Source: the human T2T-CHM13v2.0 reference genome, Homo sapiens. From it: DNA of 64,000 nucleotides. Within the stretch, counting starts at the first letter, position 1. Each line of letters begins with the position of its first letter. The stretch lies in assembly GCF_009914755.1 (NCBI RefSeq), contig NC_060931.1; one strand, 5' to 3'. Made by a program: the position numbers and the translations under genes. The notes beneath the pieces are model-generated. The model made no database searches and was not told where the DNA came from. It was given only the letters and a program-made list of their open reading frames with translations. Positions 30,883 to 63,966 of this stretch are shown in pieces.

Positions 30883-31167
<285 letters not shown>

Positions 31168-36420: not shown

Positions 36421-36845
36421 TTTAAAGTAAAAGAAGCAATGATTAGAAATGTATACCTCATGATAGGCTCTGTAGCTAATTCTACTTTAAAGGTTATTGT
36501 TACACAACAGACTTTGAATTCTCTTGTGAAAATTATGCTAAATAATAGAATTTAGTAAACAGAAAAGTACCTGTGCAGCTGCTGACACTTGTGGCCTATG
36601 GAGAAATACATCAAATGCAGATTATAAAAATTCAGTTGTAGAGGATTAATGAAAAGACCACGTAGTCAAGCAAGTAGACTCTTCATTTAGCTCATTCTTT
36701 AATCTATTTAATTTTAGGTGGTTTGGTTTATGGGGACCCTGGGTAAGGAACATACTCTGAACTATTGGTATTATCCTCCCAATAGTCATAGTAATAGTCT
36801 CCCTGGTGAGCTGTATTCTCTCAAAGGTTTTAAATGCTTGCATGC
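36421..36845 (+). pseudogene. Degenerate retroviral env TM-subunit remnant
   Basis: EAMIRNVYLMIGSVANST...QQTLNSLVKIMLNNRI, then KQKSTCAAADTCGLWRNTS (decayed CX6CC), then WFGLWGPW...IGIILPIVIVIVSLVSCIL anchor; stops and frameshifts. Confidence 0.8.
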
Positions 36846-38370: not shown

Positions 38371-38757
<387 letters not shown>

Positions 38758-40209: not shown

Positions 40210-40602
40210 TATTTCTCTTAGGATACTTTGAACAGCCATTACAAAATACCATACATAGCATGGCTTAAACAAAAGAAATTATTTTTTCACAGTTCTAGAG
40301 GTTGGTAAGTCCAAGATAAAGATCTGGCAGTGTTCAGTTTCTGGTGAGGGCTCTCTTCCTGGTTTGCAGGTAGCCACCTTCTCATTGTGTCCTCATATGG
40401 CAGAGAGGGAGAGCAAGCTCTCTGGTGTCTTTTCTTAGAAGGACATGAATACCATCAGACCATGTCCTCACCTTCATTTCTTCCTCTAATCCTAATTACC
40501 TCCAAATACAAACATGAGTAATTTCCAAATGCAGTCACACTGGGAGTTATGGCTTCAATGTGTGAACTGAGAAGGGGGGGTATAATCATTCAGTCCATAA
40601 CA
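40210..40602 (-). mobile_element. MLT1A-like MaLR LTR
   Basis: cacagttctagaggttggtaagtccaagat...tctggtgagggctctcttcctgg...cattcagtccataaca. Confidence 0.85.
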
Positions 40603-42195: not shown

Positions 42196-42341
42196 CAGAA
42201 CACTGATGGTCACCTGAGCAGTACCACTTCTCTGTCTGAGGGGGTCAGGGATGGCATCGTTGTCCAAGTCTGTTACTTTTACAGCTATCTTGTACTGTGA
42301 TTCAATTTCTCTGTTTAGTGAATCTAATAGCTTTATCACTC
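42196..42341 (-). pseudogene. Cadherin pseudogene exon J (146 nt, phase 1-0); last recognisable exon
   Basis: tttatttttgcatcag| GVIKLLDSLNREIESQYKIAVKVTDLDNDAIPDPLRQRSGTAQVTISVL |gtaaga. Confidence 0.9.
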
Positions 42342-42805
42342 CTGATGCAAAAATAAAGGGAGACCTGTTATCCCAGGATTAGTAAATATTTTCAATTTAT
42401 TCTAAAATGTTAATTCTATAAATGAAATCATTACAATAATGAATAGAAATTAACTAATACAAATCAATTCATTATATATTCATACCCCTAAAGTGTAATT
42501 ATAACAGGTATTAAAGTATGCACTATTTTACTCACCTGTTAAGTCATGTTCTTGGATACATGGAAAAGCACATGTGCATAGCCTTTCTGAAGATCAATAT
42601 AGCAAAGATCAAAGCTTTAGTGCTTTGCCTTAGGTAAGTAAGAATTTATGGATACAGCTAACAAATCCAGGTGAACATTAAATAGTTCAAGAGAAAGTTT
42701 TTAAGATGTTCTCATGATCATAGTTTCTAAATAAAATAAATTTCCAATGAGTGTATATGAGCTCTTTACTTTTATGATTAATTGATGTCAGCGTTTTTAC
42801 AATAC

Positions 42806-43027
42806 CTGTATCTGGTTCAATGTAAAATTTGGGAGGTGTTCCCAAATTGCCTCCAACAACGGTATATTCCATATTATTAAATGGCCAGTCTGCATCGGTA
42901 AATGTAACTTTTCCAACTAGTGTATCAACTGGACTATTTTCAAATACACTGAAGGTAAATGCTGACGCACTTCCAATTGGATTCAGTTCATTTATGCGAC
43001 TCACCCTTACAATGACTGTAATAATTG
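42806..43027 (-). pseudogene. Cadherin pseudogene exon I (222 nt, phase 1-1)
   Basis: ctttcttttccatag| TIITVIVRVSRINELNPIGSASAFTFSVFENSPVDTLVGKVTFTDADWPFNNMEYTVVGGNLGTPPKFYIEPDT G|gtattg; ORF 42687..43004. Confidence 0.92.
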
Positions 43028-43789
43028 CTATGGAAAAGAAAGCACGTAAAAATGCAGCTTAGGCAATAATGTGTCTTCTTCAATAATCCTTTTTTTCTTT
43101 TATTTTTTAATTAACACCTCATATTATATATTACATTTATTATATTTTATACTAAAATCTCAGGGCATAAATTATACATTTATATTGATAAGTTTTAACA
43201 TTAAATTATTGCCTTTTCACTTATAAAGCATTTTAAAATAAGTTTAGGAGTAAAACATTCCATTGATTCTTTTTGAACACTTGTCAAAGCAATTGTCTTT
43301 TACAGTGTGTTTATATATAAATGCTACTATTCTGAATTAAAGATCATAGTTTCCAAAATCTGACATACTATTCACCAATTGAAATATAATTAAAATACTT
43401 CAGCATAATAATGAAATAAATGCTATTTACTATGAGAATCTGAGTATTAGTATTTTCTCTAAAGTAGAATAAACAAATAATTCCTTGAGAAAGATTTTAA
43501 ATACACAAGTATTCTAAAAATGTTGATTTTTGACATTGTCTTTTAATAACTGTAATGTGCTGTATTAAACATTTGGGTTTCATTCTCTCTAGTTTGTTTT
43601 TATGTAGACTCTCAGTTTTTAAATAGTTGTGCATGAGCACTAAATAGGTTAATATAAGAATATATTGCATACTTTAACAGATTATTGGAATACTTATAAA
43701 TATGACAAACTTCTCAGATCCAATTTTTAAATGCACTGGGTGTTTTCTATGTCAAACTATTTTAATATTTCAAATTGGTAATTTCTTAC

Positions 43790-43895
43790 TTGATAGTACA
43801 GGACTTCCTTCATTAGACACTTTCACAAACAATGTATGTTTGAAATGCACTCCTGCAAAAATAGCATTATCAAAATCTAGATGTCTAGGTCCAAT
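43790..43895 (-). pseudogene. Cadherin pseudogene exon H (106 nt, phase 0-1)
   Basis: tttttcatctacag| IGPRHLDFDNAIFAGVHFKHTLFVKVSNEGSPVLS |gtaaga. Confidence 0.88.
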
Positions 43896-44033
43896 CTGTA
43901 GATGAAAAACAGTATATCAATGGTTCACTTTGTTTTCTTTGGTTAAAACTCTCTTTTGTCATTTACATGAATCCAAAATGAAGACATATGAAACTTATAT
44001 TGGTAACTAATTAGTGAAAGTGATATTCTAGAA

Positions 44034-44360
44034 CAGCACTGTCCAATGGGAATATAACGTGAGCCATAAATGTGTGCCACCTATGAAATTTAAACCTTTC
44101 TAGTAGCCATATTTTAAAATACACATAAACAGTAAAATTAATTTTAATAAAGTATTTTATTTAATCAAACATATCCCAAATACTACCATTTTAAATTACA
44201 ATCAATATCAAAAATACTGATATGTTTACATGTTTGTTCATTCTAATTCTATGAAATTCATTGCTTAATTGAAAACTGTAGCATATCTTAATTTGGACAA
44301 AACATATTTCCTGAGCTCAAAGGCATATGTAGATAGTGGATTCCGTACTGGAGAGCAAAG
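44034..44360. mobile_element. MER33-like hAT-Charlie element
   Basis: cagcactgtccaat...tgagcca...ttctagtagcca...gtactggagagc; about 325 bp. Confidence 0.75.
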
Positions 44361-45849
44361 TTTTATATAATATACAACTATAAATTTATTGCAAAACTAA
44401 GATGATATTACTGTATATTCTGGAACTTTGTAATTACCATACATTGTAAAAATATGCTAAAAGCAAACGTAGGGTGTCATATTTATGTGCATTTGTTCAG
44501 CCTGATTCATTTGTCATAGATTGCCATTTTCTTATACATTCTCTTCATAAACAGTTACTATGATGTGTAAAAAGTAGTCGTCATGAATTTGTGTTCTTTT
44601 GAAATGAGTTAGATCTGGGTTAGTATTAGTGGAAATAATCTGTAGGCAGCAAGCTTTGAATTGCCAGCTTCAAAATTATGCGAAAACAGAACTTGAGATC
44701 CATTCTGCTGGGAGAGGTCAAAGCATCTCATATTTTTGCTCTTTCACTTTACTCTCCTGGGAAGAATGTGCAGGGCAGGCATGATGCTTTCAGGATCTTT
44801 AATAACGTTAAATACAAAGGGAAGTGGCAAGAGTCTTCCCCTTCACAATCCTCAGGGTGGTTGTAGCCTAGAGTACGTCTAGGGCCATCCAAGGGGAGGA
44901 GTGGAAAGAATGTGATTGCGTGCTGTGTCTTCAGTTCTTCTGAGGTCTTTTTTGTGCCTCAGCCACATTCACATTAACTATTTTTCTCAACAAACAGCCA
45001 ATACCTATTAGGGAGGGAAGTTATGTGTAGCAACTGGATGCTGAGTTCGTGCAAAAAAGGATAGGTGAATAAAACTGTTTTCTTAAAATTCTACAATGTT
45101 CCCAGTATTATAGAAATCAGAGTCTGTAAATGAATTAGTCAAATGGGGGAAAATAGTTTTTCATCAATGAAGTAGCATATTAAGTGATCTCTAAGGTGCT
45201 TTTCAATATTAGAATTCTGTAGTCTATATTCTAAATAGATAAAGAAAAGTAAAGAGAACAATGGCACTGAATCATATATCAGTCAGGAAGTTAATAATTT
45301 ACACCAGTAATTATTTTGTAAATTTATTGTATGCCTTTTCGATCTATCGATATTGAGAGAATATGAAAATACAGAAATAAATTTAGCAATGAAAAGAACT
45401 ACAACTACAATAAGGAAATAGCCAGAGGCAGACACAGCATCTATGGAAATTCTGTATGTGTCAGAGATAGCATTAGAAGTCTGTAGAAATATCACTGTGA
45501 CAGTAGGTGCTCCAAATAGTGAAAAATAATTAATTGCATTCCTACTTTACTGCAGATCACAAAATAAGTTCTTTTACATTTAGAAAAAGTTAAATATGAA
45601 AGGCCACTTGTAAAAATATTTACAAGAAAATATAGGATATTTTCCAAAATATCAGAGTATATCACACCAACAATAACAAAACAAGAATGGATAAAGACAT
45701 GATTATGCTTTTCACACAAAGGAAATACAAATATTTAATGTTTATCCACAGAATTGGTGAATATATGGAATGATGTGCAATCTCATTATCAATCAGGCAG
45801 AAACATGTTAAACGATGTGACAGTAGAAGTTATTATAAGAATATTGCTC

Positions 45850-46540
45850 AAGAGCAATGCATATCCATTTCAGGTGACAGTATAAGCTGGTACAACCTCT
45901 TTGGAAAGCAACTTGGCACTAACTCATATAGTTGAACATTTAAAAACATTATAACATGGCAGTTCTGTTCTGGGGGCACTAAGAGAAACACACAAGAATG
46001 TTCATTACAATGATACACATAACACACAAAAACCAGGAGGAAATTCAAATCTCTACCAATGGGAGAATGGTTATAGTCACACAATGGAATATTAAGATAT
46101 ATAATGGGACATTACAGCAACTAAGTGACTGATAGGTAGATAGACAGATAGATGATAGCTATGATAAACGAGTACTCCCTGTTTGACTCAAACACGTAAT
46201 GAATCAAATATCAATCACAGAAGACTGCATAGATATACCACGTTTTTAAAGTTCAAGAACTAAGCAAACATAACCATGTTATCTAGTAATATGTACATTG
46301 ATGACAAAACTCTAAAATCCCCAAGTAATGACAAACACAAAATTCAGGATATTGGTTGTGTCTAGAAGACAAGCAGAGGGATGGCAAAGGGTGGCAGCAC
46401 AGCTGTTAGTAATATTCTAATTCTGAAGTGAGATGATGGGCTCAGGGGTTCATTTTATTGCTATGCTTTATTACTTGCAAATATGTTACTTATGTTATCT
46501 AATATCAAATATTACATCATAAAATAATAATTAAAAAATG
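45850..46540 (+). mobile_element. L1ME-type 3' fragment
   Basis: tggtacaacctctttggaaagcaacttggca...cacaaaattcaggat. Confidence 0.65.
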
Positions 46541-47764
46541 AATTGACTAGTAAAAATATATTGGGGTGTTTTTCAGGTCAATGCTCATTAAAGAGAAATA
46601 ACCTCATAAAATACATGATTAGTAATACTGACTTAAATAAATATTCATTTTTTATTATTTTATTAATAAGTTCAATATATTGCATATGAAATCATTTGGA
46701 TTCATTAAATAGTAATTCATTGTTAAACATTACAATTACATGGCTATCACTGGTACCCTGGTGAATATCATTCCTCAATGAGTAAAGGTAAATTTAAAGT
46801 TAATATCTACTAGTCTACTAGAGCTGTAATCATTATTTTAACATAAAATTCTTGATGCTTATTATAAATCATAGTTTTGAGTGACTGCTAAGCTCTTTTT
46901 ATCTCATTAATATAATACACATGCCAATGTATGGCATCTAAGAACAAATGTTTTATTTTTAATTTTTTAAAATTTGTATTTTAATTATGCCCTTTTATGA
47001 GTTTAAAACTCAAACATCATTGGAAAGCCAAACACATGTTCTATGTTCTTCTAGTAAATGTTTATTCCCTAAGCATTAAAATTGTGTCAGTTTCTTTTTT
47101 TACACACTAGCTTCTTTTCTCTAGCTGCTTTAAGATAAGGATGTTGCCACTTTATGACTCTTTTTGAACTTAATCACCCTTTGAGAAAAATACTATTGTT
47201 CTCATTCCAATAATAGTTGGAAAAAAGAAAAAGAGGTTATACCATATGCCAGGGAATTTAATAAAGATTAATATTTCATAATTTTCAGGCAAAGGTAGAA
47301 AGCCATCATAAAATACTCTGGGTCAATAGTTTTGCTTCTAGGAAATTTATGTGGCTGGTTTTATGATTTTAGTCAAATTAGAACAGGTCCACTACAAAAA
47401 TTTTGTTGTTGTTTACTCATGTATTTTGTGTGCTTGTTTTATTTGTTTTCTTCTTGTTAGAGTTGCATGAATAAGGGAGATTCAAAGAAATGTTATTCAG
47501 TGCCATGATCTTCATATTCCTAATTGAGGATATTTTTAATGTTTTATTATTTTCAATGTTTATCAGGATACAAATGTAATATATGTAGTTTACAAGTATC
47601 TGTTTTGATATTCTAGTCATATCAACAATATATTCTAATTGCAAGGAATTATGAAAATGTGGCATTGATGCATCTGGCAATAATGTTACTAAATCCTGTC
47701 AATGTCTTACAAAAATGACTTTTACAGTATAATTTTGTTCATTTTATTTACTCATTCATTCAGT

Positions 47765-48030
47765 ATTTTATTTTTTATTGATACATAGTGTACATATTTT
47801 GGGGTACATGCAACAATATATTTGTATGATTTGTAAAGATCAAATCAGTATAATTGGGATATCCATCACCTTAAATATTTGTCTTTTCTTTACACTAGAA
47901 ATATCCATATTATTTTCTTCTATTTTGAATTATACAATGGATTATTGTAAACTACTGTCACCCTACTGATGAAACACTAGGTCTTATTTCTTCTATCAAA
48001 TGGTAGATTTGTACCCATTAATTGCTCATT
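47765..48030 (-). mobile_element. L1MA-type 3' end fragment
   Basis: tgtacatattttggggtacatg...atcaaatcag...gggatatccatcacct. Confidence 0.75.
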
Positions 48031-48886
48031 AATAAATATATATATCTCTAAAAACACTGAATATATGTCAGAAACTAGTTTAATAACAGATTTTTTTCTT
48101 TTACCATCTAATGGGAGAAACAGATGGAATGTGTGATTAGTGCTATGGTTGGAGAGATACAAAATGCTGCAAGAACCCAATGAGACGTGCCTAATCCAGA
48201 CAAGAGGGAGAAGAAGTATTAGGGATGGCTCTTAAAAGAAACAATCTCTAAACAAAACCATGAGGGTTATGCAAAAGTGTGTGAGTACTGGGGATACAAC
48301 ATAACTGAGGAGGAATTTCTAGCAGTATGAATAGCATGAACAACAGGACAAAAAGGCAGAGGTGAAGGACATCCATTGTTTTAAGATTGTGAAAGTGGTT
48401 CTGTGCCTCTCAGCCACAAAGTATAAGACAGAGAATGATAATGTTAGGGGTTTGTGTGAAATGCAACTTGGATAGAGGTCCATTTACAATGAATTCAGTA
48501 TCAAAATAAGGTAAAAAAGAAGTGCTTGTTACCTGTGTCTACTCATCCAGACCATGTTTGGTTTCTTATCAGTTAATGAAAACAAACTCAACATGGGTTT
48601 GAACAACTTTTTTCACACCAATGTTCAGCCATTACCCAGGAATCTTTGTTGAACACAATGTCTAATCTAACCCCACCTATTCTTTTAAAAATATGTGAGT
48701 ATAACAACATATAGCCTGACTTAGGTCTCAAAATTTATTGGAAATAAAGTTCTAAATTTCTTTAATTGGTAAAATATTTGAGCTATGGTACATCCCAGAA
48801 TACAGTAATAAAGTATGCATATTAATTATCTTCATATACCATATTTGATAGTTATTGAATATATTTATTAAAAGTAACTATGGTAG

Positions 48887-49676
48887 TGATATGGACAGGA
48901 GGCAGGGAAATACTGGGTAGAAGAGGGTGGTCCCCGGCTAAGGCTACACCCCCAAGCCTGGGACTATGGCCCAAAGTGAGCACATGTATTCCTGTTTTCC
49001 CATCCAAATGTTGCCTTTTCCAAAACCATCCTGGCCTGCCCCGCCCCCCATCCTGTACCCATAACCCCAGGCTCCACTGGTAGAGGGGCAGCAGAGCAGC
49101 AAAGTGGCTGAGCAGCAGAGAAGGAGAGAAGAAAAGCAGCAGCTGGACATCAGAGAGAACAGCTTGACAGCGGGACTTCAGAGTTCAGTTGGGGCCAAAT
49201 TCCAGGGGAAGACCACCTTCCCACTCCATCCCCTTTCCCGCTCCCCATCCCACTGAGAGTCACTTCCACCACTCAGTAAGCTCTTCTACATTTACCACTC
49301 TTCAGTTCATTTGTGCAGCCTGATTCTTCCTGGATGCTGGACAAGAACTTGGGTACCAAGAGGATGGGTGTGAAAGGCTGTCACCCTGACCCTCCACTGA
49401 GCTGTTAAGCACTTAAGCTGTACATGGACAGCAAAGCTAAAAGAGCACACTGTAACACACGCCCTCTGGGGCTCTGGGGTCACAGGTACCCCCTTAGACG
49501 CCATGGGGAAGCACAGAGTTGTACTCCTGCCAGTGCCCAGAGGCATGAGTTCCAGCCCCTGCACCCACTCACCTGCATGCTCGCCATCCTGTGAGGGGTT
49601 GAGAGCTGAGGGCTGAGCAAATGAGCCACCCCCTTCGCAAGTCCTGCATAGGGGTCAAGGGAATGGTCCCGTTTCA
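48887..49676 (+). mobile_element. LTR1-family solo LTR, 790 bp, in the intron between exons G and H
   Basis: tgatatggacaggaggcagggaaatactgggtagaagaggg...cccgtttca; perfect 4-bp TSD gtag; homologous to 17653..18414. Confidence 0.87.
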
Positions 49677-49971
49677 GTAGTTTTGGCACATTCCAAAGAA
49701 ATAGACAGTATTTTATTATAGAGCCATTTGTTTTAGGAAATTTATAACCTTCCTAGTTCAGTTCCAAAGATCAAAATTGCATTCCAGCATTCATCTCAAA
49801 CTAAGATATGTTGTTGGTAATTTAAGGTTCAATTAAAAATCCAGGAACAAATTCTGCCATCAGCTATTTGAATTACTGTAGTTCATTAAGAATTTTATAA
49901 TCATGAAAATAAAATATTTTTCTATCTAAGGTTAATCACAGGGGCACAATCAGAGAGCAACTTAAAAATAC

Positions 49972-50128
49972 TCTCAGTTCATTGTTTGTGAGGGTAAATG
50001 TTCCATTTGAAAAGGCATCCACAATCAAATGATACGTTATATTGTTATTGGGAGCAGTTCCATCCTTATCTGTACAAGTTAGAGAGACTAAAAGAGTTTC
50101 AACTGGGATGTTTTCAGGATGTTCAATT
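49972..50128 (-). pseudogene. Cadherin pseudogene exon G (157 nt, phase 2-0)
   Basis: ctactcatttcag| IEHPENIPVETLLVSLTCTDKDGTAPNNNITYHLIVDAFSNGTFTLTNNELR |gtattt (weak donor); ORF 49936..50166. Confidence 0.88.
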
Positions 50129-50559
50129 CTGAAATGAGTAGAATATGGAAAAATGTGGTATAACATGTTAATCTAGATTTATGCAGATGATAATATTTAA
50201 TAGATGTTTTAAAATGTGCTCATATTTTAAATAGTCACTTCTGCCAATAAGAAAAGTACAGTGTTGATGAAAAATTGTGTAAGATAAGAAATTATTCGGC
50301 ATCCTTGCTGAGGCTAAGGGAATTGAATTGCTATTATGCTGGATGAATAAGCAGCAACTTTAGTATTATGCACACATATTATCATTGAACAAAATGGAAA
50401 TTAGTATCTCCGATTAATAATTTTATATTTATAAATGCTAGACCTCTATGTGATCTCTTGAGATTAAATATTCCATGCTTTTTCTTTACTCAGATAATAT
50501 ATACTTGTCTCCCACTTAAAAATAAGAAAACTGAGAACTATTGACTATTAAATTTGATG

Positions 50560-50967
50560 GTTAGCAGGGACTGTTTATTCTTACCAATATTCCTGTGTCC
50601 CTCTACATATCCCAGTTTCCCTACAGCTACTGAAGTAGGCTACGTGAGATGTGCTGGCAAATGAAATGCAAGTGGAAATGCATTATATCAGTTCTAGGTA
50701 TGATGATTAAAATTTGGGGGTACCTTCCACATGCTGTCTTTCTCACTTCTCTTCATATGGTTGGGAGCACAAGGCAACATACTGCAAAGCCAAACAATTG
50801 AGTAGTCTAGGATCCCTGAGTCACAGCACAGAGTGCCACACAGTAGAGCCCACCAACCTGCACTACTCTTTGCATAAGGGGCAAAGAAATGCTTATTGGG
50901 TTTAGCCAATGATATATACATATGTTATTTTTTAAAACAGCAATCAGTGGTATCTTGACTAGTACAC
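50560..50967 (+). mobile_element. Old MLT1 (MaLR) LTR
   Basis: ggcaaatgaaatgcaagtggaaatg...ggatccctgagtcac...ttgactagtaca. Confidence 0.55.
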
Positions 50968-52330
50968 AAAATTATAATGGTATTTTTCTCTTTTTTAAAA
51001 GAATACATCTAATGTTAAGCATTTAAAATACCTTAGAATTAAAATAATAGAGGAATAAAAGGTGAGTTGTCTAATTTGTTAACATGAAAAATGTTTTAGA
51101 AACAAAAAATTCTAATACCTTCCAATATGAATCTGTAGACTACTAGCTGGAATAGAAAGTAAAAGCAAACAACTATTGGAGTGGCTACAGAATTCTTCTT
51201 TGTTCTTTGGCCTTTTGGTTTTATCAGAACATCTCTGACAAAAAGTTTACAAACAAACTAAAAGTTGATTTTTGAGTATAATGGAGCAATGGCACCATTT
51301 TTGTATGTGGATTTTCGACATTTTTTATTATAAAGTGATCAAATATATCCCTGCATTTGTATTTATAAAATATTGTTTTCAGTGGGAGAAAGTAATTCAA
51401 GCGTAGACCACCAAAAACCTTTTATAATGTATTATAAAATATCATTTATGCTATGAAAGTGAAAATTTTAAGTAAGCAGGAGCTTTTATTGTTCAACTTG
51501 CAGGACTATCAAAATTCTACTGCGTATAATTTATTTTAGGTCCATCTAAATAGTCTTTTGTTGCTGGAAGCACAGACTGCTATGGTTTTCCACAAATTTT
51601 CTATATGATATATAATAGTATTGATCATCATGTGATCATTATTAATAACAGATTATCACATGATCTGTTAATTCTGTAATCACACACTGTTGGAAAGAGA
51701 TATGTTACCAGAATATCAAAGAAGAGTATGTTACCAGATTACTCCTAGACTAAGTTAAGTCTTTTTGAGCCCTCCAGTATTCTGCAGAGAACAATACACT
51801 AAGGATCAGAAAATCTAGGTTTCAGGATCCAGCCCACTATGTATTAACTGTGTAAACTTTGTGAGTAAATGAACTCCATTTTAATAATAGAAATAACATA
51901 TCATACTTGCATTTTAAATTTCTATGTAATTTAAAAGCCAGAACAAAGAAAGTAAGTTTGTATGTGGCTTTAGAGCTATCATTAAGTTAATGTCAGTAAA
52001 ATACAAAACGAATTATACCCTTGCATTTATACAAATATATGATTTCTAATATAATAGCTCTTTTATCTCCCTGAAAGCATGAGCTAAACAAAATAATCCT
52101 TTGGAATCCTTTCTAGCTTTAATTTTTATACTTTTTAAAGAATTAATAAAGCAGATTCACTTGTACCAGGTAGGAAATGGAAAGAGAAGCTGCATAGTGT
52201 CTGAAAATAAAGGAAAGAATGAAAGGCTTTGGCTTCATTCCAGGGATGGTACGATGCTTATCCATTTATTTTTCTCCTGCTTCTCTCTGTGCCAAAATCT
52301 GAAGACCAAACAATTAGTATCATAACTTAC

Positions 52331-52509
52331 ATGTAAATATCCTGCGAGCATTGAGGTGGATTGTTATTTACATCTTGTAGAAATACTGACTGTCCCAGTT
52401 GTTGAATGTATTCGCTCATTGTCATAAGCTCTAAAATATAATACCCAAGACTTTGGTGTGCCTATGTCTTCATAATCCAAAGGATAGGCAAGTGTGACCT
52501 CTCCTGAAC
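52331..52509 (-). pseudogene. Cadherin pseudogene exon F (179 nt; frameshifted, 181 or 178 nt expected for phase 1-2)
   Basis: ctgccttttag| GSGEVTLAYPLDYEDIGTPKSWVLYFRAYDNERIHSTTGTV /frameshift/ LQDVNNNPPQCSQDIY |gtaagt. Confidence 0.9.
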
Positions 52510-53639
52510 CTAAAAGGCAGGCAGATGCAAATTTTTTCTTTACTCATAAAATGAATAAGTTATAAATTAAAAATAGTGGCATGGATAAAATAGTTCTAAG
52601 GATAAAATAAAGGTCAGTCATTGATCTGATGAAACTCACACGCTAGTCACAACTGTGTATCTGTAAGGAATGGTGGTTGGGTAAGTGACCGGGAAAGAGA
52701 GAAGTCTTCTTAACTGCATATTTCAGAAAATATTTCATGGGAGGGTCATGGTGGGTGGAGTGGGGAGCACAGAGTGCAGGCTAGGCTGGGTGTTGAAAAA
52801 TGAGTACAGGAAATCCAGGCAGAGACGACTGAGGTGAGGTGGGGATGTTGAAGAGGGTGTAGGTGGAGTGGGTGACAGTAGGCAAAGAGAAAAACAACAG
52901 AAATCAACAAAAAGAAAAACTGACAATGTTTTCATTGGGAATTCCTTTTTAAATAATTTTATCCCATCTATATTTGCAGAGCACGTAACCCTTATGTGAA
53001 AGGTGCTCTCTCCTTTATAACCTTGATTTTTAATCTACAGGTAAAAATATAATTGATGGTCATTCTCATTTCCTGCGTTCTTAGTTTCTAGGTATTTTGG
53101 TTGTCTAGAGTGCATTCTCTAGCGGATGCATCAGGAAGAACTAATAGGAGATATTGTTTCCCATGTTCTCAAATTTTTATATGCTGCCTTTTATATATGA
53201 GGTCATTTTGCTGAATGTAAATTTGTTAAATCACATTTTGTGTCCTCAAGTTTCCTAAATTGTTACTCCGTTAACTTACAGAAAGGATTTATAGAAAAGT
53301 CTGTTAACAATGTATTAATATTATTCCCTTGTAGGTGACCTACTCTTTTTGCCTAAAGGCCCAAATACTTTTCTAAAAAATTAACATCTAATAGTTTATT
53401 AAAATCTGGCTCAGATTCAGCCATTATGGATTAGTTTTTCCAAGAACCTAGTTTGCCTTTTCAAATCTTTTATTTTAGGAATTTTTTTTGGATGATACCT
53501 CTGAGCATTTGTTGTATTCCTTTGCCTTTTGTTTGCTTCTTCAGGAATTTTTAGAACATGACTTAAGGCGTTGGCTCTTCTCTGCCTATCTTCTATAGCT
53601 CTCATTTTCTCTTTCATTTCTATTTTAGTATAATTATTA

Positions 53640-55235
<1,596 letters not shown>

Positions 55236-56086
55236 ATCTCTCCTACCATCCCCTTCTCACTGCCAGTTCTGGCACCCTTCTCTCTGTCTTTGTATCTCTC
55301 TCTCTCTCTCCCCTTAACTTCTGACTTGCCATACCGAACCTTCTCTCCACAAGTCATCTTCCTTCTCCTTCTCAGATTCTGGCTCTCTACCAGGAGATCT
55401 TTTGGCTGATATGATAGATGGTTTGGGTTTAACCCAGCTCTTTTCATGTGTGAAAATGTACATCACCTCTTAAAAAGAGAAGACATCTTTCTTTTCTTCT
55501 TCTTGTTGTTTTATATTTATGTCTTTAGGGTTAGAAACTCCAAACTTTTGGCCATGTGGAAGGTAGGTAGAGTTACAAATGTCAAAATCCAGCAGATTGA
55601 ATTCAAGTGCTGGTTCTGCCACAGAAATCAGCTGCATGAGCTTGGATAAATTAAAATATTTTCCAGGCATCATATGTATGTGAGAATTAGGAGAGTAAAA
55701 ACCCAAAGGGGTTATTATGTATGCAAAGTTATTATATATGTGATATATAATAAATATTCAATTTATGTTTACTACTGCTCTGGTTTCCATAGGAAAATTT
55801 ACTTCTCAGAGAAAAAAAAATCATACAATAAAATCCCAGGGAATGCTATTGTGAGTTCGAATTGTTTGGGAGCCTCCTGGAGCAACCAGATTATACAGAC
55901 CATTTCCATACTTCTGAGAAGGAAGAAATAATCATTTCTACCTCATGAAAATATGCTAAATATGCTGCTAAATATTTTAAAGATGGTTTCATCTTAATAG
56001 AATGATAATCAGGTTTATTTTTCACTAGTAAAAAACACTGTTGAATATATTTTATAAAATCATTCACAATAAAAATATTATTGTAC

Positions 56087-56232
56087 CTTCATTTATAGAA
56101 AATTATTTTTGTGTCCCTATAAGTTCATAATGTACCGAGTGCCTTATGTCTCTATCAGTTGCTGTCAACCTGACCAACTTTGTTCCAACAGACAGATTTT
56201 CATAAATATTCATAGGTGCATCTGGTATATAT
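56087..56232 (-). pseudogene. Cadherin pseudogene exon E (146 nt, phase 2-1) with in-frame stop
   Basis: ttttgtcccacag| YIPDAPMNIYENLSVGTKLVRLTATDRDIRHSVHYELIGTQK*FSINE G|gtacaa; TAA at 56103..56105. Confidence 0.9.
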
Positions 56233-56939
56233 CTGTGGGACAAAATGATTTTTTTTTATCAGTCAGTATAAACAAATGTATTTTTTCATTTATGTCACAC
56301 AGCAAATATTTTACATTTCATATAATATGTATTGTGTAACAGTTTCAAGTCTGGCCTTCTTAATGTTTTTTCATTGTACATTATTAAATCTATTAGAGAA
56401 TGTTCACATTTTATAAAATGAACTTAAATTTTCTTTTACCTGTATCCTTTTTTCAAGTCTTTCTGCTGATTGGTAAATGCTACTTTATTCCACATTACAA
56501 AATACTACAGACGTTTTTGCAATGATTTTCATTATTTTTGTGTTTGGTCATATGTCCATATCAGCAAGTGTTTTTTGCCCAAATTCTCTTAAATACCTAC
56601 ATTGACTTTGCAATATGAACATATCAATGTACATTTTCTAGAATATTTTCATTATTAAAAATAAATACCAGAAAAATATGAAGCTTTGGATTATTCCATC
56701 AAAAAAATATTGGTTCTCTTCTGTAGTTTCAAGGCTGAAATATAAATGAGTTGGCTTCCAGTGCATGTAAAAAGAGCAATAAAATACAACTCATCAAGGT
56801 TTACTTTCTAGATCACTTAAAATATTTTTAAAAAATTAACAGTGGAAACAATAGCCAAACACTGGTCTTTATCCTGCTATGAGAAAAATTTCTGTGGCTT
56901 AATCTTATCATTTAAATATTTAGATTACTCATTGCTTAC

Positions 56940-57052
56940 GTAAGAACAGGACTCTTATCATTGACATTCTGGACGTTGATACTGATGGTGCTAATGCATA
57001 ACTCCAAAGACAGGTTTTGCCTATTTCTCACAGCAATCACTAAATGGAAATG
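56940..57052 (-). pseudogene. Cadherin pseudogene exon D (113 nt, phase 0-2)
   Basis: ttatttatttcag| HFHLVIAVRNRQNLSLELCISTISINVQNVNDKSPVL(T) |gtaagc; NVND-x-x-P linker. Confidence 0.9.
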
Positions 57053-57093
57053 CTGAAATAAATAAGAGAAGCTATAATGTGGGGTTTTTTTTA

Positions 57094-57425
<332 letters not shown>

Positions 57426-58395
57426 AAAATGGCAATATGTACTTTCTCAATAAAGTTAATCCTGAACTTTGTATGAGAGAACAAAGAAAACGAACAAAGG
57501 CAATTTGTTTAGGAGTGAATGGAAAACAGCAAAGTTGACTATAGGAGAAATGATCCTATAATACCAGGGTGGAAAGTATTATTATAAGCAACTAGCCAAA
57601 TGTCCTGGAAAAATAGTTGTTGCTTTTTTTTTTCTTCAACTCTCACATAGTGGTGTTATCTCACTATGGATAAGTTCTGGCCAAAACATTTGCAGTTTAG
57701 AAAGTCATGTTTTAGTTAAGATGATGTTAAAACAAACAAACACAACAACAAAACACAACAACATCAACAACAACAGACAGCCTGATAAGTCTACTACTGG
57801 AAATGTTGAGAATTGCTTAAAGAAACTGGAAAACATTTGAAATTTAAATAGTCTCATTTTCCAGGATGATTTGGTAGGAAAAAATGATTTGTTATGTGTT
57901 TTCATCTCCTTATACCTCACCCTTCTTTCCAATTATTTGCAAATTTCAAATTTGATCAGGACATTGCAGGGGAAAAAGGCCACACCAGGTCTCCACAATC
58001 ACATAAAGCCAAAGAGAGAGGCACTTTTTTAGATAATTCAAGACTAAAGAAGTGTACTTTTATTTAATTACCCAGAACATTGCCTCTGTTCCATGCTGTT
58101 GAATATGAAGACAATCCCTTCTCCAACTTTTATATACAGCCACAGAAACACACACAATGATTGAAATAATATTTAACTAAGGTCTAATGAAAAAGTACAC
58201 ATAATGAATCACATAAGCGTCTAAATTTATTTTCTTTTAAAATGAATTTCTGCTTGATCTCAGTGAATATGAAAATGCAATTACATAAATTTGATAACTT
58301 TTTATTTCAACTTAGATATGTTTTTAAAAATTATTTTATTGAAGGGTATTTAAAGGTATTCATTGTTTTATATTCAGTTTTATAATTAGTCTCAC

Positions 58396-58509
58396 CTTAG
58401 GATTTGTTTCATAGTCCAAAAGAGGTTCAGTGGTTTTAGAAATAACACCATTATGCGAATCCAAAGCAAAGTAGGCAGTGGCATTAATTGAAGAATTTAA
58501 TATTAAAAA
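58396..58509 (-). pseudogene. Cadherin pseudogene exon C (114 nt, phase 0-0)
   Basis: gtgttgcag| FLILNSSINATAYFALDSHNGVISKTTEPLLDYETNPK |gtgaga; LDYE motif; not in the ORF track. Confidence 0.9.
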
Positions 58510-60478
58510 CTGCAACACACACATACACACACAAACATGGTTAATACATTATTGAGTAAGCATGAATTCTGAACTGACAGCTTTGATGCAACGATTTGGC
58601 AAGATGTAAACCAAAATAAATTTTGCGAAGACTGCCTATAAATTAAAATCTGAACTTACTTTCAGTTCCAGACTTCAAAAATAATCTATATATTCTTTCA
58701 CGTTTTAGTTGTATTTTTTTCCAATGCATTTTATACTAAAATATTAGAGCATTTTTGGTGAATAGCTTTCAATAATTTCATAATTAGTTTACTTTCTAGT
58801 GTTGCATTTACAGATTTTTCCAATATTAAAAAAAAGCTGTTCCCTCTTGAATACTCAGGAAGTATATCTAAAGGAGGCACATGAACTGAATTATTTGGAA
58901 GAAGCCGTTTGATTTCATCTCTGAATTGATTTTCTGCATGGCAAAAATAAAATATTGCCTTGGACAAAGCTATTATTTTTATGGGCATCGGCATGTTTCT
59001 CTCCATTGTTATCAAGACAAATATTAAAGATTTTGAAAAGGATTTCATAAAGAAATTATATTATAAACACTCACATCCAGATTCCAGCTCAAAAAAACCC
59101 TGCAATAAAACCTGGAAGATCTGATACCCAATGCCATTTCCAAAGAATGCATAATAGCCATTTTGATGGTCATATTAACCATCTTTCATTTGCCTGTAAG
59201 TGAACAACAAAAGTTGGCTTATATTAGACTAAAATCCTCTTAAATGTCCTTATGAAAATAATCTCTTTGTTTTCCCCCATTATTATGGTTTTAGATTTGT
59301 TAAACATCATCATTTTCCAAATGTTTGTTTTCTCTTTCCTAATGACTTTTACAATAAAATCTAGATATTACATTAATTTTTGGTAATGGAAACTATGCAT
59401 GTAAGCACATAATTATAATGGATACTTTTGTAGACACCCATCCTTCACACATATGGACATATTCTAGTTTAAATGCACACACCCACGTACCCCAATATCC
59501 TAACTCTATCCTCCCAACACACACACTAACACATTCACACAAATAGATGAGCTGAACCTGATATGCCAGGAATTACATTGTTCCTGTGTTGTAATCTGTC
59601 CTCAGTCTGAAATTCACATGAGCAAAAAATGTAATCAAGTGGATTAATCAATATCTCATTATAATCAGGTAACCAGAAAAATTACATATAGACTAAATTC
59701 TCCACAGAGCTTTCTCCCAAACTTTAGTTTCAACCATATTCCCAAGTGATATTTATGTGTATCTTTATAGCAAGCATGAACAAACAGAAAAAAAAGTTAG
59801 TCTCTTCTATGGAGAATTTGACTCACTAAATTTCGGGCAGAGTATTCCAGTGTATTAATCAGATTTATGATATATTGCATCATCAAGAAAACAATTTTTT
59901 TCTTACAAATATAATTAGATTAAAGGTCATATGTATACCAGAAAAATTTCTGAGAAAATACACAGTGATGAATTATCTTAAATTTCTTCTTTACCCCCAC
60001 TTAAGCTGTAACCATTTTGTCACCTAAAATTTATTCTCTCCTCTTTATGAATTATTGCTAAAACCAGAATTAATATGAAGGCCTAAAATATCCTTTACTC
60101 ACATTGTATGTATAATAAAGAAAATATGCCTGATTGGGATGAATAAAAGGCAATGAACAATGAAAGAACATTCTATTCATGCTCGTAAATGTCATCAGAT
60201 AAATGCCAATAGATGTAAGCTCTAGTTTTTCACAATGCTTTCAGACCATTTGAAATCTGTTTCTTTCATTTTGAAGCCAGAGCATTTTAATTCTATGTTA
60301 CTAGTCCCAAAGGTTTAAGTCTCCTCTCTCACTTCAGTGACTACCATACACATAAAGAATACTTTAATTAACAGCCTGGCAAAATAATATTTTGTGCATT
60401 AAAAATTGAGCACTCTTTTGGGTTTTTTTTCTCATCCAAGTTGGGCAAAAATAAATAGATGAAAATAAAAAAACTTAC

Positions 60479-60570
60479 TTCAACTTCCTGTCCTAGATCT
60501 GGATCTCTTGAAAGAATCATATATATAAAAGTAGATGCAGGAATGTTTTCAGGAACAGACACTGAAACAC
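60479..60570 (-). pseudogene. Cadherin pseudogene exon B (92 nt, phase 1-0)
   Basis: aattgtatag| GVSVSVPENIPASTFIYMILSRDPDLGQEVE |gtaagt; PEN and DxD motifs. Confidence 0.9.
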
Positions 60571-60869
60571 CTATACAATTACACAATCATGAACAATAAT
60601 TTAAATTCAAATGTCTTTCTTTCACTTCTTGCTTCATGCTGGTACCGTAAATTACCATGCTGTATTTTCCTTAAAATGATCTTCTTCATATTTGTTTCAG
60701 AGAAACAAAAAACCCCTACAAATACTTACTCCCATTAACATCAACATTTAAAAGAGCCATCATAATTCAGGTTGATATTCCTACCTTTAAACTTTGGGCT
60801 ACTGTATAGAATGGGATATAATTGCTCAAAGTCAATGGCCACTAAGATATGATTTCTACTTTTATTCTT

Positions 60870-61090
60870 TTATATTAGGATATTGAAGCTTTTTGTCTCC
60901 TTTCACAATCATGTACAAAAAAGTAGAGCACAGCCTGTGAAGACAGGAAGAAATGCACTTGAATTCCTGCTCCATCACTATTCTCACCTGTACAATGGGG
61001 ATAAAGTACTTCTCCAATCTTAGAGTAGTTTTAGAGATTAAATAGAATACTATACATAACACATCTCTCAAATGCTCAACAAATGCTACT
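60870..61090 (+). mobile_element. MIR
   Basis: ttctcacctgtacaatggggataa...gagattaaatag. Confidence 0.7.
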
Positions 61091-61731
61091 TGCCTTTTTC
61101 CAACCATCGCCCCTCATCCTCCTTCCAATGCTACCAACTATGATTCTGTGTAATCCCAAAATCAAATAACATAAATGCACATTTAGACTACTGATAGTTT
61201 CTTTACCTGTTATGTGATTCTACGAATACTTTTTTTTAAAAGAAAAAAGGCTTAATGTTTACTGTGCAGCTGAATCTTGGATATCAAATCCAGTGAATAT
61301 TGTATCACAATCTAGACTGGGTAGTCCTGTAAGGGTCTCTTTACAGGACTTTCTAAGGATGTTATAGAACAACTTTGGTGCGACTAGGACTTGCTTATTT
61401 TGAACCTTTGTTTCAAACTGAACATGTGTAGGCAGATTCTCTAATTTAGTGATTTGTTCTGGTTAATTATAGCAACTGGATAATTAAACCCAGTAAATGA
61501 ATTGAATATGTGTGTGTCAAATCAGCAGCTTGAAAATCATGTCAATGTCTTTGGTAATTCTTGGTCACAGAGACCCACAGAGTTGCCCTACTTTAAACAG
61601 AAAGTGACTTCTTGTCCTCGCTTCTCTTATGTCCCAAGGCCCACAGCCCAGATGATGGAAGAGGAAGACATCCCGATCTTGGTACTGCTCTAGCAGTTTA
61701 TGCTGGTTCAGCCAAGCTTGTAGTAGAAATC

Positions 61732-61746
61732 GGGTCAAAATGACCT
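61732..61746. promoter_or_regulatory. Perfect palindromic IR3 estrogen-response-element consensus (motif only)
   Basis: gGGTCAaaaTGACCt matches RGGTCAnnnTGACCY; function not shown. Confidence 0.4.
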
Positions 61747-62989
61747 TCTTGAGATCCACGTGTATCTTTTTAAAGTTTACTATAATTTTGGAAGACTGAA
61801 AGGAAATTACAAAGAACATCAATTAAATTGTTTCAAAGTGGTCCAAAAGATCATATCTTCACAAACACCAAACCCATTCGTTGGTACCTTGCCAAGGCTC
61901 ACCTAGGAGACTTTTCTTGGTTAAATTTAATTTCTGTGAACAAATTTCTTTAATATAAACTTCTATTTTTAGATATGTTTATTATTATGTATATCAGAAG
62001 ATATGTTCTGATTCAAAGTAATAAATCTGTGTGTTGTGCGTTTTGGAACTTTTGGGTTTCCAAAAAGGTGATGTTTCTGAACATTGAGAAGAGATCATTC
62101 TGGTGGTAAGAAATAGAGCAGCAATGAACAGGCATCCAGGAAAAACAAAACAAAAAAGAGACTATTTTAATGAAGTTTGCCTTGTTCCACTTGCCCTCAA
62201 CTTCTTTTTTATCTCATTGCCTCCCAGTTATTTGGGTAGTTTCTCTTAATAGAAATAGAGAAAGAAAAGCAGTAAAACAAAGAAAGCAGAAGGAGTAAAG
62301 TCTTTATGGTAGGTGAGCAAGTAAAGTTAGAAATAAATGGAGAGAAAAAAATGAAAAGACTAACTAATAGAGCAAATATAATTGTTGAGATCCAGTGGAC
62401 CCAGCCAAAATTAAATCAAGCCAATCTATGTTTTCTGAGATCCAATCATGTGCAAGGTCTCAAGTATATTCAAATGTTTTAAAGATTGTGTTTTTAGGTC
62501 CTCATGAAAAACACAAATACACCTAAGAGTGAGGTTAGGGAACAGTATATGAGGTTGTGATTGACACAAAGTAGAATAGCATATTTTAACATTTTATCCA
62601 CAAAGACATACTGATTCCAATAGATGATGCATGCTTTCTTTCATGAGGTAAGTGAAAGAATAAAATTTCATTTACAAAACTTAATTTATCAAACTTTTCA
62701 AGACTATGCCTATTGTAATCATACTGAAAGCTACCTCTATATATTACTTTAAATCTATTATAGTTTGTACAACTGAAAATTTATTTTAAGCAAGTATTTT
62801 GGAGGCAAGAATAGCAGATGAAATAACTACATACTACTAGGAGTAATGATGACACTTAAGAGGCTGAAATTTTATATAAATACAGCTAGAATTTTTAATT
62901 TAAGAAACATTAAAAATGAATAGTGGAGCAGGTTTACTAAAATGTTGGAAAAGAATAATTTATTATAATCATACAAAAATAAATGATTC

Positions 62990-63500
62990 TATACAAATGG
63001 TATATGTGTTTATAATTATCTATTTATATGTGGTATATATATTATTGTATACACCAAATTAAAGGAAATGTGTTTATAGTTTGTATCATGTATCATTTCA
63101 TGCTTATTATTTTTTGAAGATAATCTTTAATGGTTAGATAGCAATTCATCAAATGGACATAGTGTCTTTTAATCAATTTCCTATTCTTAGACATTTTGGT
63201 TATTTCAAACCTTATACTATTACAAACTTTGAACATAAATCTTGATTATATCTCCATTATTTCTGTAAAGATGAATTCAGGGAGAAATACTCAGGTAGAG
63301 ATTATAATCATTTTTAAAATAACTGTTCATGAAATAGTATTCTAGGTGGTTATTCTAAAATCCCACTTTATGAAAGTGATAATTTCTGTATACTCTAGCC
63401 AATGCTGATTTTTTTCCTATTATTTTAATATTTTGGCCAATTTAGTAGGTGAAAATTGTATTTTATTGTTTAGATTTGTATGTGTTTGATAACTTGTGAG
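62990..63500 (-). mobile_element. L1ME-type fragment
   Basis: tagacattttggttatttc...ttttggccaatttagtaggtgaaaa resembles the reverse L1 3' end. Confidence 0.6.
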
Positions 63501-63783
63501 GCTACATATCAATCCATATGTTACAGATACAATCAGAATAATTTTGTCATTACTCCTAATACCCTATCTGCCACACACAGAAATAACTATAATTTGAATT
63601 CAAATTTGAATTATAGTAACTTTATTTTTTTTCTTTTTAGGAACATGCTATGTCTCTCACTTTATTTGCTTTTATTTACTTCCCATTTATAAAACTAGAA
63701 AGCTTAAACTATAATTCCAGTTTTATTTTTAAATTTTATTATTGTCTCATGAATTTTATCAATAAAATTGACTTGTATTATAC

Positions 63784-63966
63784 CTGCTCCTGTTGAAAAA
63801 CTTGGATCACAGGAAATAGGATCATCTACATTCTCCACAAAAACTGTAAACGTATAGCTGCTGGTATTATTCCCATTATCTGTTGCCTCAGTTTCCAAAG
63901 AGTAGATTTTGGAGTTACTTGGGTTGTCAAGATTCAAAGGCTGAAGAAGAGTGATTGTTCCTGTGA
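63784..63966 (-). pseudogene. Cadherin pseudogene exon A (183 nt, phase 1-1)
   Basis: ttctttttattag|TC ACA GGA... TGTITLLQPLNLDNPSNSKIYSLETEATDNGNNTSSYTFTVFVENVDDPISCDPSFSTGA G|gtataa; overlaps ORF 63704..63937. Confidence 0.9.

What the first reader, a model, noticed from the sequence alone, without database searches (positions are those of the whole stretch)
42196..63966. Well-preserved lost cadherin: 10 exons, all 20 splice dinucleotides canonical, only two disabling lesions
Seen: 1458 nt of phase-consistent exons encoding about 4.6 cadherin repeats; only four exons appear in the ORF track. PPxC...LTCTDxD cysteine spacing and many small exons recall CDHR3/CDHR4 rather than protocadherins. 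Established: CDHR3 is an airway cadherin and the rhinovirus-C receptor. Inference: this is a unitary pseudogene of a little-studied cadherin that is intact in other vertebrates and was lost during primate evolution. It is the most substantial biological system in the window.
Basis: partly seen in the sequence, partly recalled or inferred. Interest (0 to 1): 0.85.

Follow-up and report, generated by a model that had tools for sequence, protein, structure and literature searches.

The report
Dead human copy of cadherin Cdhr17
This stretch holds the middle ten exons of a broken human copy of Cdhr17, an old and unstudied vertebrate cell-surface cadherin that is still intact in rodents, rabbits, bats and pangolins; it is an ordinary single-copy dead gene whose leftover exons are now labelled as two non-coding RNAs.

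Summary
On the minus strand there are 10 phase-consistent exons totalling 1458 nt. All 20 splice dinucleotides are AG/GT. There is one in-frame TAA (56105-56103) and one 2-nt frameshift (near 52387).

The exons match residues 282-767 of the ~1030-aa mammalian Cdhr17 (Gm28710) proteins at 64-87% identity. In a tree the human reading sits beside marmoset and mouse lemur inside that clade.

The genome holds no other close copy. Every other cadherin match is at most 39% identical, and the DNA is single-copy.

"Only two lesions" is true only inside the window. In the flanks I found 11 more exons of the same gene, spanning about 112 kb in all. Gene-wide there are 2 nonsense codons, 7 frameshifting indels and a 6-nt deletion in the membrane anchor.

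Human has changed 15 of 255 residues that are invariant in 31 therian orthologues. Intact controls changed 0-11.

The verdict is a transcribed unitary pseudogene of Cdhr17. Its exons are reused by lncRNAs LOC100128317 and LOC105369146. The case is real and tidy, but an ordinary kind of finding.

The parts
63784..63966 (-). It encodes the second half of EC3 and is identical to an exon of lncRNA NR_126025.1. Exons 1-7 lie outside the window, at window places 90779-90747, 89712-89545, 79887-79717, 73129-73035, 71038-70916, 69046-68943 and 66502-66357. Exon 1 has a 1-nt deletion and exon 2 has TAA at 89566-89564.
   Evidence: AG/GT flanks and 183 nt. 80.6% identical over 62 aa to pangolin P0002 residues 282-343. 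Hub table. Outside exons.
60479..60570 (-). Exon 9, the start of EC4. It lies inside the lncRNA terminal exon 58448-61795.
   Evidence: AG/GT flanks and 92 nt. 87.1% identical over 31 aa to rabbit P0005.
58396..58509 (-). Exon 10, the middle of EC4. The equivalent 38 aa are missing from the mouse, squirrel and jerboa proteins.
   Evidence: AG/GT flanks and 114 nt. 82.5% identical over 40 aa to P0002. Orthologue sequences.
56940..57052 (-). Exon 11, the end of EC4 with its linker. It carries G->S and E->K at sites invariant in 31 orthologues.
   Evidence: (64.1% to P0002, 81.6% to lemur).
56087..56232 (-). Exon 12, the start of EC5. It contains the in-frame TAA.
   Evidence: 83.3% over 48 aa, with '*' opposite Glu.
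56103..56105 (-). Lesion: nonsense codon TAA where pangolin, rabbit, lemur, mouse and marmoset have Glu.
52331..52509 (-). Exon 13, the end of EC5 with its linker. It contains the frameshift.
   Evidence: two HSPs in different frames, 69-81% and 74-79%.
52384..52390 (-). Lesion: net 2-nt deletion. The exon is 179 nt where the orthologue protein implies 181, and the frame runs into TAA 8 codons later.
   Evidence: Codon count against P0002.
49972..50128 (-). Exon 14, the start of EC6. It holds the CTDKD half of the retained cysteine pair.
   Evidence: (81.8-84.9% over 53-55 aa).
43790..43895 (-). Exon 15, the end of EC6. It is identical to an exon of lncRNA NR_136264.1 and has D->N at an invariant site.
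   Evidence: Hub table.
42806..43027 (-). Exon 16, the EC6/EC7 linker and start of EC7. It is identical to an exon of lncRNA NR_136264.1.
   Evidence: Pfam Cadherin 28.9 bits. Query, with 47 hits.
42196..42341 (-). Exon 17, the end of EC7. It is identical to an exon of lncRNA NR_136264.1 and has D->N in the LDRE-like motif. Exons 18-21 lie outside the window. Exon 18 (-2121..-2259) has compensating -2 and -1 frameshifts. Exon 19 (-2439..-2690) has two 1-nt deletions. Exon 20 (-18812..-18936) is the membrane segment, with a 6-nt deletion. Exon 21 (-20701..-20794) has a +1 shift.
   Evidence: (76-78% over 50 aa). Outside exons.
1..42195 (-). In-window part of the 44-kb intron between exons 17 and 18. 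It contains no cadherin-coding remnant. It holds the non-cadherin lncRNA exon 10535-10682 and the RefSeq enhancer 31642-32206.
   Evidence: tblastn with three orthologues found no match to residues 768 onward in the window.. Hub table.

Best explanation
The window holds exons 8-17 of the human remnant of CDHR17. This is the orthologue of mouse Cdhr17 (Gm28710, LOC102640594).

The ancestral gene encoded a type-I membrane protein of about 1030 aa. It had a signal peptide, eight calcium-binding cadherin repeats, a Thr-rich stalk, one membrane-spanning helix and a short tail with no catenin-binding domain. It belongs to the same branch of the superfamily as CDHR3 and CDHR4.

In the human genome it is a single-copy, intron-containing (unitary) pseudogene and can make no protein. 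The first 60 codons already hold a frameshift and a stop. Seven more ORF-breaking lesions follow, plus a deletion in the membrane anchor.

The locus is still transcribed. Its old splice sites still work, which is why RefSeq lists pieces of it as two lncRNAs.

Shown here: the exon structure, the lesions, orthology, single-copy status and the excess of changes at conserved residues. Inferred: that constraint was lost roughly 20 million years ago on the lineage to apes, and that the RNAs have no function of their own.
For: - Structure: 21 exons are colinear with orthologue residues 1 to about 974, and 41 of 41 splice dinucleotides examined are canonical.
- Lesions: TAA in exon 2 and in exon 12. 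Frameshifts in exon 1 (-1), exon 13 (-2), exon 18 (-2 and -1), exon 19 (-1 and -1) and exon 21 (+1). A 6-nt deletion in exon 20.
- Orthology: the conceptual translation is 86.3% identical to marmoset (377/437), 81.4% to mouse lemur (574/705), 80.6% to pangolin (767/952), 72.9% to mouse, 56.0% to crocodile and 43.2% to shark. In a FastTree of 32 rows it is sister to marmoset (support 99), then lemur (82), inside a Cdhr17 clade with support 100.
- No parent copy: a whole-genome protein search gave 70-79% identity only at this locus. The other 77 of 79 listed matches were 23-39% identical and lie on other chromosomes; I recognise some of those positions from memory as CELSR, FAT and protocadherin genes. 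A 1901-nt DNA query matched only itself.
- Relaxed constraint: human differs at 15 of 255 sites invariant in 31 therian orthologues (5.9%). Leave-one-out controls range from 0 to 11 changes (0-4.2%), with a mean of about 1.2% by my sum.
- Timing: 13 of the 14 human changes covered by another primate are absent from that primate. Since the split from marmoset, 9 of 21 human-derived changes hit invariant sites, which make up 110 of the 399 sites compared. In marmoset the figure is 4 of 32.
- Motifs: several human changes fall in motifs I recognise from general knowledge as calcium-binding ones. These are D->V in TDED, D->N in DVNDN, D->N in LDRE and E->K in NVNDE.
- Transcription: four lncRNA exons have exactly the cadherin exon borders (hub table).
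Against: - Orthologue DNA could not be fetched, so no dN/dS value and no lesion-by-lesion dating exist.
- Synteny with mouse was not tested. I know only that the human locus lies between SEMA3C and HGF (PMC8263547, passages read).
- All 'intact' orthologues are computer-predicted proteins.
- One intact control (guinea pig, 11/265 = 4.2%) comes close to the human value, so the conserved-site excess is clear but not extreme.
- Only one human assembly was seen, so individual lesions could be polymorphic. Nine independent ones can hardly all be.
- A function for the RNAs is not excluded.
Confidence: 0.93

Rival explanations
1. The pseudogene has been taken over as a functional long non-coding RNA locus. 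Selection on the RNAs, not chance, would then explain why every splice site survives.
For: Two curated (BestRefSeq) lncRNAs reuse the old exons with exact borders (hub table). 41 of 41 splice dinucleotides are canonical. A RefSeq enhancer lies in the 44-kb intron (hub table).
Against: At about 2-4.5% neutral divergence, 82 splice bases would be expected to take only 1.6-3.7 hits. No hit at all then has a chance of about 0.03-0.2 gene-wide and 0.17-0.45 for the 20 in the window. This is my arithmetic from recalled rates. The annotated RNAs stop inside or skip old exons: exons 11-14 are in neither. No paper I found assigns them a function; the 8 papers are GWAS or expression lists by title and abstract, and I read passages of one. 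There is no Rfam match in the window.
Confidence: 0.08
2. It is a working or polymorphic protein-coding gene, and the lesions are assembly errors or rare alleles of the sequenced genome.
For: Only one assembly was examined. The in-window part has just two lesions and reads very cleanly.
Against: There are nine independent ORF-breaking lesions in seven different exons, plus a deletion in the membrane anchor. There are also 15 changes at invariant residues. RefSeq curators treat the transcripts as non-coding (hub table). Old and New World monkeys have only 144-445 aa fragment models.
Confidence: 0.01
3. It is a duplicated or processed pseudogene of a cadherin that is still intact elsewhere in the human genome, such as CDHR3 or CDHR4.
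For: It belongs to the same clade as CDHR3 and CDHR4 and shares their cysteine pair.
Against: Introns are retained, so it is not a processed copy. Nothing else in the genome exceeds 39% identity to the orthologue protein (with a stricter first look, so weak matches may be missing). The DNA is single-copy. CDHR3 and CDHR4 proteins are only 28-35% identical to the family and form separate clades with support 100.
Confidence: 0.01

Closest known systems
Mouse Cdhr17 (Gm28710, LOC102640594) and its vertebrate orthologues
   Same: The exon-encoded protein is colinear from the signal peptide to the tail. Identity to mouse is 72.9% and to pangolin 80.6%. The eight-repeat layout is the same, as are the PxC...CxDxD cysteine pairs. 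The human reading nests inside this clade.
   Different: The human copy has 2 stops, 7 frameshifts and a shortened membrane anchor. Human keeps the 38-aa exon 10 that the mouse, squirrel and jerboa proteins lack. No published function for Cdhr17 in any species was found.
CDHR4 and CDHR3 (the latter known from the literature, recalled, as the airway receptor of rhinovirus C)
   Same: They share one supported clade (100) that excludes the protocadherin, CDH8 and PCDH16-like rows. They also share the cysteine-pair signature, which occurs twice in CDHR4 and once or twice in CDHR3. I recall the many-small-exon gene structure of CDHR3 and CDHR4; I did not check it.
   Different: They are only 28-35% identical and form separate clades. 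CDHR3 and CDHR4 are intact human genes, by recall. Nothing here links Cdhr17 to virus entry.
Classic human unitary pseudogenes (for example GULOP, CMAHP, UOX; recalled)
   Same: Single copy, introns kept, functional orthologues in other mammals, disabling lesions in the human copy, and the locus is still transcribed.
   Different: Those have known lost functions and dated lesions. Here the lost function is unknown and the date is only a rough inference.

Membership tests
Cadherin superfamily (extracellular cadherin repeats) | Repeated ~110-aa EC domains recognised by Pfam PF00028 | tested here: met
   8 of 11 window ORF pieces hit PF00028 (E from 1.6e-6 to 0.066). Each piece is half a domain, and only one reaches the gathering score. 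Orthologue P0002 scores 285 bits with 7 stretches.
Cadherin superfamily (extracellular cadherin repeats) | Calcium-binding linker motifs (PEN, DxD, LDRE, DxNDN; recalled from general knowledge) | tested here: inconclusive
   The motifs are visible in the translation. Several are mutated in human at sites invariant elsewhere: D->V, D->N three times, E->K. This fits decay. Binding itself cannot be tested.
Cdhr17 orthology group | Nests inside the clade at the place expected from the species tree | tested here: met
   FastTree of 32 rows: human with marmoset (99), then lemur (82), inside Euarchontoglires; clade support 100. This is a quick method. The careful IQ-TREE run did not finish.
Cdhr17 orthology group | Exon-by-exon colinearity with the full-length protein | tested here: met
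   21 exons match P0002 residues 1 to about 974 in order.
Cdhr17 orthology group | Conserved synteny with the mouse gene | not testable with these tools
   The human locus lies between SEMA3C and HGF (PMC8263547). No mouse genome was on hand.
Unitary pseudogene | ORF-disrupting lesions | tested here: met
   2 nonsense codons and 7 frameshifting indels.
Unitary pseudogene | No functional paralogue from which it was copied, and introns retained | tested here: met
   Introns of 0.2-44 kb lie between the exons.
Unitary pseudogene | Functional orthologue in other species | tested here: inconclusive
   One search lists many long predicted orthologues from shark to mammals, and 31 therian ones served as the reference set, where they changed few conserved sites. 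All are predictions, and no experiment or paper was found.
Unitary pseudogene | Lesions fixed in the species | not testable with these tools
   Only one human assembly was available.
CDHR3 / CDHR4 proper | Groups with CDHR3 or CDHR4 orthologues | tested here: not met
   Separate clades, each with support 100, at 28-35% identity. It is a sister family, not a member.

The most novel reading that the evidence does not exclude
CDHR17 is a gnathostome-old surface cadherin that has been discarded repeatedly and independently in mammals. Candidate losses are apes or anthropoids, whales, sirenians, ruminants and carnivores. In the human lineage the loss came late, after the split from Old World monkeys. 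Repeated loss of a CDHR3-like apical cadherin would point to a conditionally costly function, such as serving as a pathogen entry receptor, rather than to simple redundancy.
Probability: 0.1. Interest if true: 0.6.

Novelty: new member of a known kind. Interest (0 to 1): 0.3.

Why it matters
- It gives two 'uncharacterized' human lncRNA genes (LOC100128317, LOC105369146) an origin. They are the two halves of one dead cadherin gene.
- GWAS hits assigned to them (glaucoma, glioma and tumour-marker papers listed) therefore fall in a gene relic, not in a purpose-built RNA gene.
- It adds a clean, datable case to the catalogue of human gene losses.
- It flags Cdhr17 as a vertebrate-wide cadherin with no literature. 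Mouse knock-out results for it could not be carried over to humans.
- None of this overturns anything, because unitary pseudogenes are a well-known class.

Tried and rejected
- Further cadherin exons in window 1-42195: tblastn with three orthologues found none. The next exon lies 44 kb downstream, outside the window.
- The lncRNA exon 10535-10682 has no cadherin frame and no Pfam match.
- Solved structures: the best match is CELSR1 (8vy2, E 2.6e-68), followed by desmocollins and protocadherins. No CDHR3 or CDHR4 chain is among the best 60, so the PDB gave no help on subfamily.
- Other long ORFs (48855-49184, 49310-49654, 52738-53034): no Pfam family.
- Rfam over the whole window: 0 matches.
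- Literature: 0 papers for Cdhr17, Gm28710, CDHR17P, LOC102640594 or the full name. Two papers hit 'Cdhr18' only, and the term was not in the held part of the one I opened. The seven papers with 'unitary pseudogene' + cadherin + primate look like general reviews or unrelated studies by title and abstract, and I did not read them.
- The IQ-TREE mixture run did not finish in 300 s. I used FastTree instead.
- Not attempted: structure prediction, complex prediction and the representative-library search. They would not bear on the verdict.
- dN/dS, lesion mapping on the primate tree and synteny could not be done, because no other vertebrate genome DNA was reachable.


Full report
**1. The observation**

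Reading the minus strand between 42196 and 63966, I delimited ten exons by their flanking AG and GT and by codon phase. They are 63966-63784, 60570-60479, 58509-58396, 57052-56940, 56232-56087, 52509-52331, 50128-49972, 43895-43790, 43027-42806 and 42341-42196. They add up to exactly 1458 nt, and all 20 splice dinucleotides are canonical.

Joined, they read through in one frame except at two places.
- A TAA at 56105-56103.
- A frame change near 52388-52386. That exon is 179 nt where the orthologue protein implies 181, so the net change is a 2-nt deletion.

Pfam's Cadherin model matches 8 of 11 ORF pieces. The scores are weak because each exon holds only half a domain.

**2. What it is**

The 73-aa translation of the largest exon found 47 proteins with E from 9.5e-44 to 1.7e-6. 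They carry a jumble of automatic names (CDHR3-like, CDHR4-like, FAT-like, CELSR-like). They also include 'Cadherin related family member 17 [Jaculus jaculus]', 'Gm28710 [Phodopus]' and 'Predicted gene 28710 [Apodemus]'.

A second search with the mouse-lemur protein added the mouse protein LOC102640594 (962 aa). It showed the family from shark, coelacanth, amphibians and crocodilians to marsupials and placentals.

Full-length members are about 960-1090 aa. Each has a signal peptide, linker motifs marking eight repeats (Pfam counts 6-7), a Thr-rich stalk, a hydrophobic membrane segment and a short tail.

tblastn places the ten window exons on residues 282-767 of pangolin P0002 at 64-87% identity per exon. 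That runs from the second half of EC3 to the end of EC7.

**3. The rest of the gene**

Nothing in window 1-42195 matched residues 768 onward. The window's own genome could be searched, so I fetched 80 kb to the left and 120 kb to the right. The remainder was there.
- Upstream: exon 1 at 90779-90747 and exons 2-7 between 89712 and 66357.
- Downstream: exons 18-21 between -2121 and -20794, plus looser tail matches near -21860 and -28330.

All 41 splice dinucleotides examined are canonical. These outer exons are more damaged than the window part.

| Exon | Lesion |
|---|---|
| 1 | 1-nt deletion, putting TAA at codon 8 |
| 2 | TAA for Lys (89566-89564) |
| 18 | -2 and -1 shifts that cancel but scramble the second conserved cysteine motif |
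| 19 | two uncompensated 1-nt deletions |
| 20 | two codons lost from the membrane segment |
| 21 | +1 in a T run |

With the two window lesions, the gene-wide tally is 2 nonsense codons, 7 frameshifting indels and 1 in-frame deletion in about 2908 nt. 'Only two disabling lesions' is therefore a property of the window, not of the gene.

**4. Unitary, not duplicated**

A six-frame search of the whole genome with P0002 gave 79 matches. The two at 70% and 79% identity are in this window. The other 77 are 23-39% identical and lie on other chromosomes. From memory I recognise some of those positions as CELSR, FAT and protocadherin genes. That search used a stricter first look, so weak matches may be missing.

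A 1901-nt DNA query (42100-44000) matched only itself. The introns are retained.

**5. Orthology and family**

The conceptual translation has X at every break and was built and used only inside scripts. Its identity to orthologues is as follows.

| Species | Identity |
|---|---|
| marmoset | 86.3% |
| mouse lemur | 81.4% |
| pangolin | 80.6% |
| rabbit | 79.8% |
| mouse | 72.9% |
| opossum | 69.5% |
| crocodile | 56.0% |
| shark | 43.2% |

In a FastTree of 32 rows it is sister to marmoset (99), then lemur (82), within a Cdhr17 clade with support 100. Cdhr17, CDHR4 and CDHR3 together form a clade (100) that excludes the two protocadherins, CDH8 and a PCDH16-like protein. This is a quick method with few outgroups.

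The pattern PxC, then 29-33 residues, then CxDxD occurs twice in each of 6 Cdhr17 orthologues, twice in CDHR4 and once or twice in CDHR3. It is absent from the 4 other cadherins. Human keeps the one in the window and has lost the other to the exon-18 frameshifts.

Cdhr17 is thus a sister family of CDHR3 and CDHR4, not a member of either (28-35% identity).

**6. Loss of constraint and a rough date**

Across 31 intact therian orthologues, 255 aligned sites covered by the human reading are invariant, and human differs at 15 of them (5.9%). Each orthologue tested the same way against the other 30 differs at 0-11 sites (0-4.2%, mean about 1.2% by my sum). The three 'LOW QUALITY PROTEIN' models (humpback whale, dugong, manatee) differ at 8-11%.

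Of the 15 human changes, 14 are covered by at least one other primate, and 13 of those are absent from that primate. One of the 15 sits at a frameshift border and may be an artefact of how I cut the pieces.

Against marmoset there are 399 shared sites, 110 of them invariant. Of 21 human-derived changes, 9 fall on invariant sites, so conserved positions are not being avoided. In marmoset the figure is 4 of 32.

The marmoset model has Lys and Glu where human has its two TAA codons. The Old World monkey and capuchin models keep Asp at the two human D->N changes in exons 15 and 17.

Taken with substitution and indel rates that I recall rather than measured, all of the following fit about 0.02 neutral substitutions per site: 8 indels, 2 stops, and an amino-acid divergence about half that expected for full neutrality since the marmoset split. 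That suggests something like 20 million years, with a very wide margin. This date is inference only.

The monkeys are not clearly intact either. Their gene models are 144-445 aa fragments that skip exons.

**7. How it works now**

It makes no protein. The hub's table shows two curated lncRNAs on the same strand.
- NR_126025.1 uses exon 8 exactly, then runs on through exon 9 into exon 10.
- NR_136264.1 uses exons 15, 16 and 17 exactly, then a non-cadherin exon at 10535-10682. It ends at -2146, inside exon 18.

So the relic is still transcribed and its old splice signals still function. At about 2-4.5% divergence, the survival of all splice dinucleotides needs no selection. By my arithmetic the chance is roughly 0.17-0.45 for the 20 in the window and 0.03-0.2 for all 41.

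**8. Known or new**

I found no paper naming Cdhr17, Gm28710, CDHR17P, LOC102640594 or the full gene name. The two LOC names occur only in 8 papers that, by title and abstract, are GWAS, linkage or expression studies. I read passages of one of them, which gives the gene order CD36, SEMA3C, LOC100128317, HGF (PMC8263547).

I could not consult GENCODE or HGNC, which may already list the locus as a pseudogene. The kind of object is well known, and this is a new, well-resolved instance of it.

**9. Verdict**

Interest is modest. This is a clean human gene loss of an ancient, unstudied cadherin, useful for annotation and for interpreting mouse data, but not surprising.

Noticed in passing
window 58396-58509 (exon 10) compared with P0051, P0004, P0029: The 38 residues encoded by this exon are absent from the mouse, squirrel and jerboa proteins, where exon 9 joins straight to exon 11. 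Rabbit, pangolin, lemur and marmoset have them, and so does the human relic. Rodent Cdhr17 would then have a truncated fourth repeat.
   Followed up: partly
protein hits (P0039, P0053, P0056, P0131, P0134, P0135): The family looks patchy in mammals. The whale, dugong and manatee models are flagged LOW QUALITY and show 8-11% changes at invariant sites. Reindeer, yak and raccoon dog have only 301-354 aa fragments. No long model from any carnivore, ruminant, horse, elephant, ape or Old World monkey appeared. This suggests repeated independent loss.
   Followed up: partly
window 10535-10682, minus strand: An exon of lncRNA NR_136264.1 with good AG/GT flanks that is not derived from the cadherin gene. 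It has no cadherin frame and no Pfam match. It lies in the 44-kb intron between exons 17 and 18, so it looks like a newly recruited exon.
   Followed up: partly
window 54197-54532 and 57047-57435: The ORF translations in these two masked stretches look like Alu elements, by recall. Both lie in introns of the relic, and the second lies just upstream of exon 11's acceptor.
   Followed up: no
window 48850-49650: A locally G+C-richer patch (0.415 for 48-50 kb against about 0.3 nearby) with open frames of 110-115 aa on the minus strand. There is no Pfam match and its nature is unknown.
   Followed up: partly
window 30001-32000: The highest G+C in the window (0.466). It coincides with the RefSeq enhancer 31642-32206, inside the 44-kb intron of the relic.
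   Followed up: no
P0003 (mouse lemur, 714 aa): The only long primate model is itself incomplete. It starts in EC2, skips the membrane-segment exon and reads the next exon in another frame, so its tail resembles the human +1 frame of exon 21. The lemur gene may also be damaged, or the model may be poor.
   Followed up: partly
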